Assembly: GCF_009914755.1 (NCBI RefSeq)
Contig: NC_060930.1
Reading direction: 5' to 3' (one strand)
DNA length: 64,000 nucleotides
Source of the DNA: the human T2T-CHM13v2.0 reference genome, Homo sapiens
Below, piece by piece: positions 21,706 through 62,207 of this stretch. Position 1 is the stretch's first letter, and every line of letters starts with the position of its first letter. Both the position numbers and the translations under genes were made by a program. The notes beneath the pieces are model-generated. The model was not told the DNA's origin, did no database searches, and saw only the letters and a program-made list of their open reading frames with translations.

Positions 21706-22338
21706 GGATCTCCATATTTGTTGAATGAATGAATGAGTGAATAAATAAACAAGGAGACAGCTATGATATATTTTAATCTAGATTTCAAAGTATTTTAGAG
21801 CTTATTTTTCACACACAAAAAAATCTAATTATTGGAATTACCTTCCAACATTAACAGAAAAGACTCGTTAGGCAATATAGCACCCCTACCCTTAATATGT
21901 TTGAAGTAGTTTTATCTCCACACCTCTCTAAACTTAAATTGTTGTATATGCAAGCATTCCTTGCTTTGCATGTAACATGGTAAATGAAATTCATGCATAC
22001 CAACACTATGTGCTCTATCTGTACTGTTCTTTGGTAACTAACGTGTTTAATAACATGGTATTGTGCAAAGCACATTATAATAAATGTACACGGAAATAAG
22101 CTCTAATGACCCACAAACTCAAATTCAGTAAAACAGGAAGGAAAAGCATCACATGAAGAATGAATGAGCAACCTTTGGGCAGTAACTATGAATGGACACC
22201 CCGATGGGAAAGAAACTCAGACACCTAAATGACTTTTTCAAACTCTACATGCCTCTCTCCAATAATGTATTGGAGAGAGGCCAAGGCAGGTGGATCACTT
22301 GACTTGAGGTCAGGAGTTCAAGACCAGTTCAAGCACCT

Positions 22339-22468
22339 GAGACCAACATGGTGAAATCATTGCTATTTGAGAATGAATCACTGTTCGTGATCAACTAATA
22401 TAAGAGACCGACATGGTGGAATCATTGCTATTTGAGAATGAATTACTGTTCGTAATCAATTAATATAA
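22339..22468. repeat. 65-bp tandem duplication
   Basis: gagacc(a/g)acatggtg(a/g)aatcattgctatttgagaatgaat...taatataa at 22339-22403 and 22404-22468. Confidence 0.95.
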
Positions 22469-22829
22469 GTGTTTCCAATCACAAAAACCAAATGGTGTTT
22501 GTGAATTGGGGGAGGGGAACAGAGCAGAAGCAAGGTGGCTAAGGGAATGAGGGACCAGCACTTCATAAAATATTGAGACAAAATTAGGTCACACTAAATT
22601 CAGTCTGGTCTTAAAAACTACAGGAATGAACATTTTTCAAAACAGAGGTAGATCAAATCTTTGGAATTCTATCTCCTAACCCTTCTCTTAATTCATTCAA
22701 AATAGCCTTAGAATTACTCAACAGTATTAGGTTGTCCCCTCTGTACTTCCATATCCACGTCTACATGCAAGATTTTTGTTTTTTCTAGCCGACTTTTAAA
22801 AATTAACACCAACTTTCAAAACTTTAAAT

Positions 22830-22945
22830 TTTATTTTTTATAGAGGCAGGGTCTCACTACATTGCCCAGGCTGGTCTTGAAATCCTGGGCTCACCTCGGC
22901 CTCCCAAAGTGCTGGGATTACAGGCGTGAGCCACCAAGGCTGGCC
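22830..22945 (-). mobile_element. Alu monomer (FLAM/left arm)
   Basis: agaggcagggtctcactacattgcccaggctgg...gagccaccaaggctggcc. Confidence 0.85.
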
Positions 22946-23200
22946 CAAAAACTCGTAAATTTTAAAAAGTGTATTCAGCACTAATAAAGAAAAGCAGTTC
23001 ATATATTAAAAGTTTAAGTGTTTCTGCCAAGAGTTAGGAAAAAATTGAAAAGTATCTTATAGACAAATACTAATCGAAGCTTAGCAACTAAAACAGTGTC
23101 AGGGGAAAAGCAATAAATAACTTCACTTAAAAAGAAAATTCTACTCGAAGTCTATTTATTATGTATCACAAATGGGACGAAGGAGAAATGCAATTTACTA

Positions 23201-23377
<177 letters not shown>

Positions 23378-24084
23378 TCAGGGGCTTTAATCACAAATCA
23401 CAGGAAGACTACATTCTACAGTTACGTGCCTAGGCTAGTATGATCTACTTTCCAGGCATCAGGTGGTTTCCTTCTAACCACTCCATTCCCATAGAAACCT
23501 CAATATGCACAATAGGATTGTGGGCAAAGGCATTCTTTATCAGCCATGTGAACTGTTATGTCACAGTACTGTTGCATCTAATTGTCATCCCTGTATTCAT
23601 AAAGGACAGTTGATTTTTGTAAATTTATTTAAATATGTTTTTTACTTTTAGAACTTAAAATTTTAAAAAACTGTAAGAACCAAGATGAGCAACTAAAACG
23701 CATGCAAATCACCTATTCTGTGGTTATTACCATTAACATTATAGCATATACATTTCCAGTCTTTTACCTACACATACATATCTAAATACAGATTAGGACT
23801 ATCCTTTACAAACTGTACTATAACTTTTTTCACATAATATAATGTCAACATTTTCCCAAGCCACTGAATATTCTTCTGAAACCTAATTCTAAATTTAAAA
23901 AAATAAGTTCCAAAATAAGAGAACATTTCCTAATATAACCATTACCCACAGTGAAGTAAATAACTTAGCAATAAATAAACATGACTAATACAAACGTTGT
24001 AGATTTCAATGGACAAACCTTAAGTCATCCTTTTAAAAAATCTAAAGTAAATTAGCTTACTTGGTTAATCAGAATTAAATAATA

Positions 24085-24329
24085 CAGGTTGAGTATCCCA
24101 TTTCCAAAATGCTTGGGATTAGAAGTGTTTCAGATTTCAGCTTTTTTTTTTTTCTTCAAATTTTGGAATATTTGCATCATATTCTTACCATTTGAGCATC
24201 ACAAATCTGAAAATCTGAAATGCTGGAATGAGCACTTCCTTTGAGTGTCACGTCAGTGCTCAAAATGTTTTGGATTTTGTAGTCTTAGATTCTGGATTTC
24301 AAATTGTGGGATTTGGGATGCTCACCCTG
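24085..24329. mobile_element. Tigger4/MER46 (Zombi) MITE
   Basis: TA|CAGGTTGAGTATCCC ... GGGATGCTCACCCTG|TA inverted ends. Confidence 0.85.
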
Positions 24330-24709
24330 TACTCACAACAAGGGCAAAAAGAAGACTACTTGGTGTTATACACAGTCCTGTCTTTATCTGTATAATCTAT
24401 TAATGAGTTACTCCTAGATTTAAGAGCTGCAAAATTTGAAAACACATCAAATTTATCTCAAAATGAGTAACTCTGACCAAGATTCAAATATCAGTTAATA
24501 TTATTTATGCTTGTGCTACTCTGGGCACGATGCTTATGGGATAGCCCTGCACTGCAAGGAGCAGTACACATTTGCTTATATATATAAACATAGATATATG
24601 TTTATATATATAATTGTATATATAATTTATGCTTGCTTACTTGTATAGAATTATGGAAAAGTCATCAGTTTCTAGAGATCATGTATTTATTTGGTAGGAA
24701 TTTAGGATG

Positions 24710-25097
<388 letters not shown>

Positions 25098-58896: not shown

Positions 58897-60807
58897 CTCT
58901 CAGGCAGCCTTTGACTCGTGCGAACTTGTTTATAAAGTCCTCTTTTCAACAAAAGTCAAGTACACAACTCCTCCCAAATTCTGGTTTCTAAGGAGAGACT
59001 CCAAAGAAGTCTTTGTTAATAAATTGCTCTCTTTTCTTTTCACTATAATAGTTTGTAGTTGTAAAGTCTGGCTTTTATTTTTGCACACCTCACAAAGTGC
59101 AAGACTCAAAACTGTGGGATCGTAACTTTATTCTAAACTTATTTAAATCTACTTTCCTAAAATGTAAGTTATCTTGACTGCCTCCATGAACCCTAACCAT
59201 CACTTGTTATCATGCTATTACTTCCTGACCCAAGGTCCCATTCTGCTCTCTTTTATCTCTGTCCTGTTGGTTTCAGAGGAATGATTTAAGCCTAATTTAA
59301 TTCTTCTATTAATACTTCAGCTCTAACACTTCTGACTGTGCTCCAACTAATTATCCCATCTCCCAGATTTCCCTTACTACTAGTTTCTTCCTTCATCCTA
59401 TACACATGCTCAAATGTTCTCCCATCCTATTAAAATGCTTCCTTTAACCTTCATCACTTCTGAACTATTAGGATAGCTTCCCCCCATCTCCCTGCCTCCA
59501 GTCCTGCTCTACCTGTCCCAGCATCCAACCAGTGTATGTTATCTAAAATGCATTCTAACAATGTCACTCTTCTGTTTAACACCTTTTATTGATTCCTTCT
59601 AGGCAAATTCCAAATTTCTTAGCATGGTAAACAAGGTCTTTTATGGCTAATTTCTTCTTTCCTTCTAGCTTCCTTCCCCTGCTCTCCCTGCCTTGCGCTT
59701 CAAAAAATCCAACAGTATCCAATATTTTGTAAGACTTCTGAGCCCTAAGGCTATGCCATGCTTCTATGACTTTGTTGCTGTTGTCCCTGCTGCCCGGAAC
59801 ACTACCCCCACCAGCACCATCACCACATTCTTTCTTCTTCACTTGGCACACATCACTCATTTTTAAGACTCAATTCATGTTTTGGAAAGTATTTCCTGAC
59901 CCACCCAATTTGGATTTGTTGGTCCTCATACTTTCCTCGGTAATTTTTTGATCACCAATGCCCAGCATAATGCCTGGCATTTATTAAATGTTTGTCAAAG
60001 TAACCTAAGCTGAACATGCGCTCTCTTCTAGGATTCCCATCAGTTTCACCTCATAATCTAAATTGTTCCATATAGCTTAGAGTTTAGGTAGAAAGTGGTC
60101 GTTTTCTTTGTTACTTCATCGATGTCTGAGGGAGAAAATCAGCAAGTCACGTTGAAAGTAATTGAGATGCACTGCCATTAGCAGAGTGGGTCTCCAGCAG
60201 TCACTAGCAGTTAAAGTTTTCCGCCATCACCGTATCCTGTCTCAGTGTCAGTTTTAGGATCTGTACGGGGAAAGGCATCACTTCTTCCATTTGGCTGCAC
60301 ACTCTGCAGTGCATTCCCAGAACACAACCACACTTCTGTTCCTCTATCCGTTTATCCTTACTCAAATGATACCTCTCCCCTGCTAGAATGGAGACTCCTA
60401 CAAAGCTGGCATGAATTCCTATACAAAAAGGCTACAAACTGGAGTTCCACCTGCTGGAACTGGAGAACCTGTATGATTGCTGTAACATACATTAACCTAC
60501 TTCAGCATACAAAATGTAATATTATGAATGTGGTAGTAGTACATAAGCTTCGATTCTACTCACACAAACTGAGAATTCTAGGCTTCCATGATGGTCAGGC
60601 AGCAACACATTAAAAAGACCACACTTCAGGAGCACATATCACAAGGACGCCTAGTATCACCATCTTGATCCACATCGCTTGGTTTGCTAATTAGCATAGT
60701 GAACACCAGAGATGGGTTTTTATTTTTGGCTTCCCCAAAAGTATGATAAATGTTAAAAATGGGATCTCATGTATGCAATTAGCAAAATCTAAAATATATG
60801 GGATTTG

Positions 60808-61150
<343 letters not shown>

Positions 61151-62207
61151 CTAATGTGTTGCTGCCTGACCACCACTGAAGCATAACAGAGGCATAGCTC
61201 GTTATATAGTGCTTCACCTTATTGCTCTTCGCAGAGTCTGTTTTTTACAAATTGAAGGTTTATGGCAACCCTGCATCAGGCAAGTCTTTTGGCGCCATTT
61301 TTCCAACAGCATGTGCTTACTTCATGTCTCTGTCACATTTTGGCAATTCTCCCAATATTTCAAACATTTTCATTATTATTATATCTGTTATGGTGATCTG
61401 TGATCAGTGGTCTTTGATGTTACTACAGTAATTGTTTTGGGGCAGTATGAACCACATCCATATAAGATGGTGAACTTAACTGATAAACACGTGTGTTCTG
61501 ACTGCTCAGCCCACTGGCCCTTCCCCGTCTCTTTCCCTCTCCTCTAGCCTCCCTATTCCCTGAGACACTACAATATTGAAATTAGGCCAATTAATAACCC
61601 TATAATGGCCTCTAAGTGTTCAGGTAAAAAGAAAAAAATGCACGTCTCTCACTTTAAGTCAAAAGCTAGTAATGACTAAACTTAGTGAGGAAAGCAAATC
61701 AAAAGCCAGGACAGGCCGAAAGCAGGTCTCTTGGACTAAACAGCCAAGTTATGAATGTGAAAGAAAAGCTCTTGATGGAAATTAAAAGTGCTACCTCAGT
61801 GAACTCACAAATGATAAGAAAGCAAAACAGCCTTATTGCTAATATGGAGAAAGTTTGAATGGTCTGGATAGAAGATTGAGCCAGCCATGATATCCCCTTA
61901 AGCCAAAGCCTAACCCAGAGCAAGGCCCTAACTCTCTTCAATTCTGTGAAAGCTGAGAGAGGTGTGGAAGCTGCAGAAGAAACACTGGAAGCTAGCAAAG
62001 GTTGGTTCATGAGGTTTAAGGAAAGAAGCCATCTCCATAACATGAAAGTGCAAGGTAATGCAGCAAGTGCTAATGTAGAAGCTGCAGCAAGTTACCCAGG
62101 AGACCTAGCTAAAATCATTGATGAAGGTGGCTACACTAAACAACAGATTTTCAATATAGACAAAACAGCCGTCTATTAGAAGAGGATGCCATCTAGGATG
62201 TCCATAG

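What the first reader, a model, noticed from the sequence alone, without database searches (positions are those of the whole stretch)
22251..22468. Complex templated insertion: fold-back hairpin, copy of an Alu 2.5 kb away, tandem duplication
Seen: (a) a perfect 14-bp hairpin GCCTCTCTCCAATA-atg-TATTGGAGAGAGGC (22251-22281); (b) its end runs through GGC microhomology into an orphan 78-bp Alu piece (22279-22356) with no tail or TSD; (c) that piece shares two non-consensus insertions (CACTTGACTTGA; AGTTC(A/C)AG(C/T)ACCTGAGAC) with the Alu segment at 24754-24831, 70/78 identical, most differences being CpG decay in opposite directions (CA vs TG); (d) a 65-bp tandem duplication overlaps the right junction and its second copy keeps the ancestral CG. 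Inference: one old repair event with snap-back synthesis and template switching (FoSTeS/MMBIR or Pol-theta-like), copied DNA-to-DNA across exon 4 rather than retrotransposed.
Basis: partly seen in the sequence, partly recalled or inferred. Interest (0 to 1): 0.7.

Follow-up and report, generated by a model that had tools for sequence, protein, structure and literature searches.

The report
Ancient DNA-repair patch in ATG5 intron
In an intron of the human ATG5 gene, a 78-letter piece of an Alu repeat carries a mark found elsewhere only in the Alu 2.5 kb away and sits between a perfect hairpin and a 65-letter tandem repeat; it is likely the scar of an ancient chromosome break patched by copying nearby DNA, a known and fairly common kind of event with no sign of function here.

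Summary
A tailless, TSD-less 78-bp Alu piece (22279-22356, ATG5 intron 4) is 70/78 identical to 24754-24831, inside a full-length Alu with 12-bp TSDs in intron 3. The second shared insertion matches exactly at only these two sites genome-wide. The first, a 5-bp slip, recurs in other Alus. A perfect 14-bp hairpin, the most stable in the window, ends in the left junction, and a 65-bp tandem pair (60/65) spans the right one. This fits a repair-mediated duplication (Pace et al. 2009, PMC2671141: 824 human cases under 5 kb). It is absent from their table, whose pipeline excluded repeat-derived donors. Two of their listed cases lie 50-65 kb away. Likely mechanism: a germline break, fold-back synthesis, then a 3-5-bp microhomology switch to the neighbouring Alu. 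The age is roughly catarrhine, with wide limits. Not shown: that all three parts arose in one event, which polymerase acted, or DNA rather than nascent pre-mRNA as the template. All need the empty allele from other primates. The site is deep-intronic with no evidence of function. New member of a known kind; low interest.

The parts
22251..22281 (.). Perfect 14-bp hairpin with a 3-nt loop; the right arm ends inside the left junction. Which arm is native is not determined.
   Evidence: (I21)
22277..22281 (+). Left-junction microhomology: 3 bp with today's donor, 5 bp (GAGGC) if the donor once had the consensus base at 24753
   Evidence: 65 of 69 aligned Alus carry A at that column; the ancestral state is inferred
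22279..22356 (+). Acceptor: internal left-monomer Alu piece, truncated at both ends, no tail, no TSD; antisense to ATG5, intron 4
   Evidence: (D2)
22298..22307 (+). Shared 5-bp micro-duplication (recurrent in other Alus, not private)
22322..22343 (+). Stretch holding the shared +10-bp complex insertion, private to acceptor and donor
22339..22468 (+). 65-bp tandem duplication (18 bp Alu end plus 47 bp single-copy flank, twice), 60/65 identical, 1-bp junction microhomology
   Evidence: (D3)
24754..24831 (+). Donor segment, 2,475 bp start to start from the acceptor, across ATG5 exon 4 (23204-23282)
   Evidence: exon from the supplied annotation
24698..25059 (+). Full-length donor Alu (24710-25047) with A-tail and perfect 12-bp TSDs (24698-24709, 25048-25059); about 10% non-CpG divergence from a local consensus
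   Evidence: (D15)

Best explanation
The 78-bp Alu piece shares a private insertion only with the Alu 2.5 kb away, and was likely copied from it as a patch when a germline double-strand break in ATG5 intron 4 was repaired, the perfect hairpin likely coming from fold-back synthesis at the same junction and the 65-bp tandem repeat likely added in that episode or soon after. Steps: (1) SHOWN: acceptor and donor descend from one sequence; the donor is the intact element (TSDs, tail) and the acceptor an internal fragment. (2) INFERRED: a broken 3' end folded back and copied about 11-14 nt of its own flank, leaving the hairpin. (3) INFERRED: the new end, reading GAGGC, paired with the neighbouring Alu over 3-5 bp and copied 78 nt. 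The mirror order, starting from the right end, gives the same product. (4) INFERRED: the strand was released and rejoined the right flank; exon 4 was neither lost nor duplicated. (5) INFERRED, about even odds for the same episode: 65 bp across the new right junction were duplicated through a nearly blunt join. The product looks like neutral intronic sequence, probably fixed in the catarrhine ancestor (loosely 15-40 million years ago).
For: Private +10-bp insertion exact at 2 sites only. The neighbour is the best genome-wide match. A random donor would lie this close with p about 1.6e-6. No tail, no TSD. The hairpin is unique in the window and ends in the junction. Tandem arrays of period 40 or more with under 3 copies are rare: this one plus 6 other arrays in 194 kb. 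Divergences agree (8/78 vs 5/65, p 0.77), and the three copies of the 18-bp overlap each differ privately from a CG-bearing ancestor. Distance, size, microhomology and filler all fall in the ranges of Pace et al. 2009. Only 295 of their 824 acceptors are intronic, so the class does not need a transcript. Fold-back inversions of 5-34 bp are seen at yeast breaks (PMC11724301). Snap-back SD-MMEJ leaves inverted repeats across junctions (PMC2943611). Multi-template insertions are 33 of 103 and 26 of 99 germline calls in two people (PMC8421209).
Against: No empty allele, so the break site, any deletion, the right-junction microhomology and the native arm of the hairpin are unknown. The tandem junction has 1 bp of microhomology, weak for a template switch. 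The 5-bp left microhomology rests on an inferred ancestral base. The snap-back primer would be a 2-3-bp A/T stem. Age limits are wide: per-lineage divergence 0.018-0.051 pooled, 0.019-0.071 for the Alu pair, 0.009-0.054 for the tandem pair, so events millions of years apart would look the same. The clocks disagree: CpG-adjusted counts favour the catarrhine/hominid classes, all-site counts the all-primate class.
Confidence: 0.58

Rival explanations
1. Same local copy, but separate events: the hairpin was there first (perhaps causing the break at its stem base) or was perfected later, and/or the tandem duplication arose on a later branch.
For: The junction lies exactly at the hairpin's base. The hairpin is still perfect while the other pairs differ by 8-10%. 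The tandem junction has 1-bp microhomology. The point estimates differ in the expected direction (0.040 vs 0.025 per lineage).
Against: A perfect 14-bp stem would survive 5% divergence about half the time (arithmetic). The intervals overlap. Chance co-location with a junction is about 1e-3 or less for each feature, unless the site stayed fragile.
Confidence: 0.21
2. The copied tract was longer (from about 22241), and the hairpin is the donor Alu's own 5' stem-loop (24730-24756) rewritten by template switches into a perfect palindrome.
For: The donor stem-loop (-5.1 kcal/mol as DNA) ends at the same GGC as the junction. Four 4-mers of the donor's left flank recur in the hairpin. A 5-mer just left of the hairpin matches donor-specific bases (1.35% in nulls, picked post hoc).
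Against: Anchored alignment of the left flank to the donor or consensus is not above hairpin-shaped nulls: p 0.14-0.36 in 6 of 8 settings and 1.0 in the other 2.
Confidence: 0.09
3. The template was the nascent ATG5 pre-mRNA in cis, reverse-transcribed from the left broken end.
For: ATG5 is on the minus strand, so a plus-strand 3' end primed on the pre-mRNA gives exactly this orientation, and donor and acceptor lie in one transcript. RNA-templated break repair is reported in human cells (PMC12065846, abstract).
Against: The class is mostly non-intronic (295 of 824 acceptors in introns) and includes copies in opposite orientation. Nothing here needs RNA: no tail, no splice junction.
Confidence: 0.06
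4. A 2,475-bp tandem duplication (22357-24831, containing exon 4) followed by a fold-back deletion that removed all but 78 bp of the first copy.
For: It yields the same right junction and the same order of sequence.
Against: It needs two rare events, the first duplicating a 79-nt coding exon (a frameshift). No remnant of the first copy's start lies left of the piece.
Confidence: 0.05
5. Independent retrotransposition of a sibling Alu (a small subfamily, or a non-classical insertion from a free Alu RNA).
For: Truncation at both ends and the absence of TSDs match non-classical Alu insertions (PMC5402677). The 5-bp slip occurs in other Alus.
Against: The second insertion is at two sites only. The 6 other slip carriers examined share 0-3 of the donor's 22 non-CpG changes, fewer than unrelated J-type elements (up to 7). 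Proximity p about 1.6e-6.
Confidence: 0.01

Closest known systems
Repair-mediated duplications (RDs), Pace, Sen, Batzer and Feschotte 2009, PMC2671141; the 'doublets' of Thomas et al. as cited there
   Same: Short copy (78 bp; class mean 162, max 619), donor under 5 kb away on the same chromosome, no polyA, microhomology in the 2-9-nt range, extra junction sequence in the 1-68-nt range, divergence in the range of their primate classes.
   Different: The donor is an Alu segment, which their pipeline systematically excluded. The filler is a perfect fold-back (the words 'hairpin' and 'inverted' do not occur in their text). A 65-bp tandem repeat spans one junction. The locus is not in Table S1.
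Complex germline MMBIR-like templated insertions (MMB-TI), Osia et al. 2021, PMC8421209
   Same: Several templates, one inverted and one direct, joined at microhomology; present as germline variants.
   Different: Those are variants against the reference with a known empty allele. This one is old, presumably fixed, and its single-event origin is unproven.
Snap-back SD-MMEJ (PMC2943611) and fold-back inversions at yeast breaks (PMC11724301)
   Same: A short perfect inverted repeat across a junction whose end supplies the microhomology.
   Different: There the new end joins the other break end; here it would join a template 2.5 kb away. The enzymes differ between systems (Pol delta in yeast) and cannot be read from sequence.
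Non-classical (endonuclease-independent) Alu insertions, as described in PMC5402677
   Same: Fragment of about 77-95 bp, truncated at both ends, no tail, no TSD, non-Alu sequence at a junction.
   Different: Those are taken to come from Alu transcripts. Here the source is identified as the neighbouring genomic copy.

Membership tests
Repair-mediated duplication (Pace 2009) | Donor on the same chromosome within 5 kb | tested here: met
   2,475 bp start to start
Repair-mediated duplication (Pace 2009) | Short copy, 50-619 bp | tested here: met
   78 bp; range
Repair-mediated duplication (Pace 2009) | One identifiable parental copy in the genome | tested here: met
   Private insertion exact at 2 sites; best non-self hit 105 vs 76 bits. 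Their pipeline's filter against repeat donors is a method limit that they state.
Repair-mediated duplication (Pace 2009) | No polyA/T tail | tested here: met
Repair-mediated duplication (Pace 2009) | Microhomology, filler or deletion at the breakpoints | tested here: met
   3 bp (5 with the inferred ancestral base) at the left junction; filler inferred; deletion and right-junction microhomology unknown
Repair-mediated duplication (Pace 2009) | Empty pre-insertion site in an outgroup or in a host repeat's consensus | not testable with these tools
   No other primate genome is held; the flanks gave no paralogue
Classical TPRT Alu insertion | Intact 3' end and A-tail | tested here: not met
   The piece ends inside the left monomer
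Classical TPRT Alu insertion | Target site duplication | tested here: not met
   Longest cross-flank repeat is 6 bp, at chance level
Non-classical Alu insertion | Truncated, no tail, no TSD | tested here: met
Non-classical Alu insertion | Derived from a diffusible Alu transcript | tested here: not met
   The source is the neighbour; chance proximity 1.6e-6
Complex MMB-TI / FoSTeS-MMBIR product | Two or more templates joined at microhomology | tested here: inconclusive
   Left switch 3-5 bp; tandem junction 1 bp; right junction unknown
Complex MMB-TI / FoSTeS-MMBIR product | All junctions formed in one event | tested here: inconclusive
   Divergences compatible, intervals wide
Snap-back SD-MMEJ / Pol theta scar | Inverted repeat spanning the junction | tested here: met
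Snap-back SD-MMEJ / Pol theta scar | Primer repeat and microhomology repeat in the unbroken allele; dependence on the enzyme | not testable with these tools
   Needs the empty allele and genetics
Dispersed Alu subfamily | Diagnostic changes shared by copies at unlinked sites | tested here: not met

The most novel reading that the evidence does not exclude
A fossil of RNA-templated break repair in the primate germline: the folded-back left end primed on the nascent ATG5 pre-mRNA and reverse-transcribed 78 nt of intron 3 into intron 4. If so, part of the 'repair-mediated duplication' class, and of orphan tailless Alu fragments, would be cis pre-mRNA copies, detectable as an orientation and donor-side bias in transcribed genes. 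Private marks in Alus, as here, would give the donor-acceptor pairs for that test.
Probability: 0.06. Interest if true: 0.6.

Novelty: new member of a known kind. Interest (0 to 1): 0.17.

Why it matters
Little by itself: a deep-intronic scar 736 bp from exon 4, overlapping no annotated exon or element, with no consensus splice donor or acceptor motif on the transcribed strand in a simple scan. It has modest value as a clean example of two points. First, an Alu fragment that looks like an endonuclease-independent retrotransposon insertion can be a local copy of its neighbour. Second, private marks can recover the repeat-donor cases that the 2009 catalogue excluded by design. It also shows a fold-back and a kilobase-range template on one junction, a fossil counterpart of junctions seen in break-repair experiments.

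Tried and rejected
Empty allele from paralogues: both flanks returned only themselves (that search skips common words, so this is not proof of rarity). The 47-bp part of the tandem unit has 2 exact hits, both here, and 2 three-mismatch hits against 1 for the control. It has no local template beyond one 11-mer in about 21 kb. Second hairpin 22475-22509: z about -3.1 to -3.3 when picked post hoc but only rank 24 in the window; not counted as a part. A 6-bp repeat across the whole feature as a TSD: chance level. A subfamily defined by the 5-bp slip: rejected. Hairpin as a remodelled Alu stem-loop: not significant, kept as a minor rival. Papers that were not held and are not used as evidence (identifiers recalled): a 1000 Genomes deletion-breakpoint study (searches did not find it), the original non-classical Alu paper, a templated-insertion polymorphism paper and the doublet paper. 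Earlier scan findings were not available, so repeats of this observation within the scan are unchecked.

Full report
Observation. All four features are at the stated coordinates. The hairpin (22251-22264/22268-22281) is the only mixed-sequence perfect stem of 12 bp or more in the window. The other long one is an AT run at 24576-24613, and 104 kb of other loci held only one dinucleotide palindrome. The random expectation is 0.0045 per window. It is the most stable 45-nt fold in the window. The piece 22279-22356 aligns without gaps to 24754-24831 at 70/78. It has no tail, and the best cross-flank repeat (6 bp) is matched or beaten by 351 of 400 controls. The tandem pair is 60/65 with a 1-bp junction ambiguity.

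Common descent. Searched against the whole genome, the neighbour scores 105 bits and the next match 76 (40 of 99 candidates scored). A 22-nt pattern over the second insertion has 2 exact hits, both at this locus; its 6 two-mismatch hits are fewer than the 12 of the reversed control. The first insertion is not private: 8 hits at one mismatch or fewer, 6 elsewhere, one of them with its mismatch inside the repeat. The 6 outside carriers in my alignment share 0-3 of the donor's 22 non-CpG changes, against up to 7 for unrelated elements, so they are independent slips and not a subfamily. Insertions of 5 bp or more are otherwise rare: none in the 17 other near-full-length Alus of the window. The donor is the intact element, 24710-25047, with a tail and perfect 12-bp TSDs (D15). 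It has an S-type left arm and several J-type right-arm bases (labels recalled, not from a library) and lies 10% from a local consensus at non-CpG sites. A free RNA would land within 2.5 kb of its source with p about 1.6e-6.

Junctions. Left: the hairpin's last three bases match the donor. 65 of 69 aligned Alus carry A where the donor now has G at 24753, so the microhomology was probably 5 bp (inferred). Right: the homology stops at 22356/24831; without the empty allele the microhomology is unknown. The 65-bp unit holds the last 18 bp of the piece, so it cannot be older than the copy. In those 18 bp the three copies each carry one private change from a CG-bearing ancestor. The left end of the copy also falls at the base of the donor's own weak 5' stem-loop. 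I tested whether the hairpin is that stem-loop rewritten; the alignment was not above hairpin-shaped nulls (p 0.14-0.36 in 6 of 8 settings, 1.0 in 2).

Age. Non-CpG differences are 2-3 of 66-68 for the Alu pair and 4 of 61 for the tandem pair (Fisher p 0.43-0.71; all sites p 0.77). A joint CpG and non-CpG estimate, calibrated on 38 S-type Alus of 66, gives 0.031 per lineage (0.018-0.051), about a third of the donor's own divergence. So the copy is much younger than the donor's insertion. Against chr6 rows of the published catalogue, class means were 10.5% (all primates, 24 rows), 6.1% (catarrhine, 10) and 4.7% (hominid, 6); I left out 1 human, 1 human-chimp, 2 mammal rows and 1 row with a chr4 acceptor. 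CpG-adjusted counts favour the last two classes about 2-3 to 1, all-site counts the first about 3 to 1. The best guess is the catarrhine ancestor, with wide limits.

Mechanism. Most likely a germline break was patched by synthesis: a fold-back made the hairpin and a new 3' end, the end paired with the neighbouring Alu over 3-5 bp, 78 nt were copied, and the strand rejoined the far side. The mirror order gives the same product. Common descent and direction are shown; every repair step is inferred. Hairpin and tandem repeat each sit on a junction, which chance would give about 1e-3 or less, but a fragile site could collect them one after another. The 1-bp tandem junction is weak evidence for template switching; I put that part at even odds for the same episode. 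Sequence cannot name the enzyme: fold-backs need Pol delta in yeast (PMC11724301, passages), and snap-back SD-MMEJ leaves the same print (PMC2943611, passages).

What is known. Pace et al. 2009 (PMC2671141; parts 1-5 of 8 read; passages) describe 824 human repair-mediated duplications with donors under 5 kb away, mean 162 bp, microhomology 2-9 nt and filler 1-68 nt. They state that donors that are parts of repeats were excluded. I saw all 120 chr6 cells of Table S1; none is in ATG5. Two rows nearby were recovered in this assembly at C6:107,518,219 and 107,532,356 with the listed spacings. That fixes the offset at about 621.6 kb and puts this locus near hg18 106,846,700, where no row exists. 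The other three supplements were only term-searched. Complex multi-template insertions are common germline variants (33 of 103 and 26 of 99; PMC8421209, passages and most of one section). Outwardly the piece matches non-classical Alu insertions (PMC5402677, passages), but its source is local. A search for ATG5, intron 4, Alu and duplication found one unrelated plant paper; the library lacks most subscription journals, so this is weak evidence of absence from print.

How ordinary. In 88 kb (the window and 24 kb beyond it) self-comparison found five local pairs of this kind: this one, an inverted 56-bp pair at 60579/61130, an unlisted 209-bp pair and the two catalogued ones. Local copies are common here. 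What sets this one apart is only the perfect fold-back and the tandem repeat on its junctions.

Function. The site is 736 bp into intron 4, overlaps no annotated exon or element, and shows no consensus splice motif in a simple scan. Its copies have drifted at about neutral rates. There is no evidence of function.

Verdict. A real, well-marked, uncatalogued member of a known class; single-event origin plausible but unproven. Interest 0.17.

Noticed in passing
window 60579-60634 and 61130-61185: Single-copy inverted pair, 56 bp, 87.5% identical, one copy just after the tail of the Alu at about 60808-61110; a candidate inverted repair-mediated duplication, or the termini of an old element.
   Followed up: partly
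L054, G000:C6:107516725-107516930 and 107518041-107518248: Single-copy direct pair, 209 bp, 85.6%, 1.1 kb apart, whose second copy overlaps by 30 bp the start of a duplication listed by Pace et al.; possibly a two-donor patch. No matching row among the chr6 rows seen.
   Followed up: no
window 22829-22945 (minus) and 24710-25047 (plus): Inverted Alu sequences flank ATG5 exon 4 (I1 and I2: 76% over 46 nt, 90% over 39 nt) and could pair in the pre-mRNA; such duplexes are linked to exon skipping (PMC13019944, search listing only).
   Followed up: no
window 22475-22509: Imperfect hairpin 6 bp right of the tandem repeat; rank 24 in the window, not counted as part of the event.
   Followed up: yes
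window 24576-24613: Perfect 17-bp AT-rich hairpin with a 4-nt loop, about 100 bp left of the donor Alu.
   Followed up: no
window 24710-25047: The donor Alu mixes an S-type left arm with J-type right-arm bases inside intact TSDs (labels recalled); L010 shows a similar mix and the same 5-bp slip but shares only 3 of 22 changes.
   Followed up: partly
L007, L017, L024, L030 near 1500-1570: Unrelated Alus show the same first bases as the donor's second insertion, suggesting a recurrent slip point in the left monomer.
   Followed up: partly
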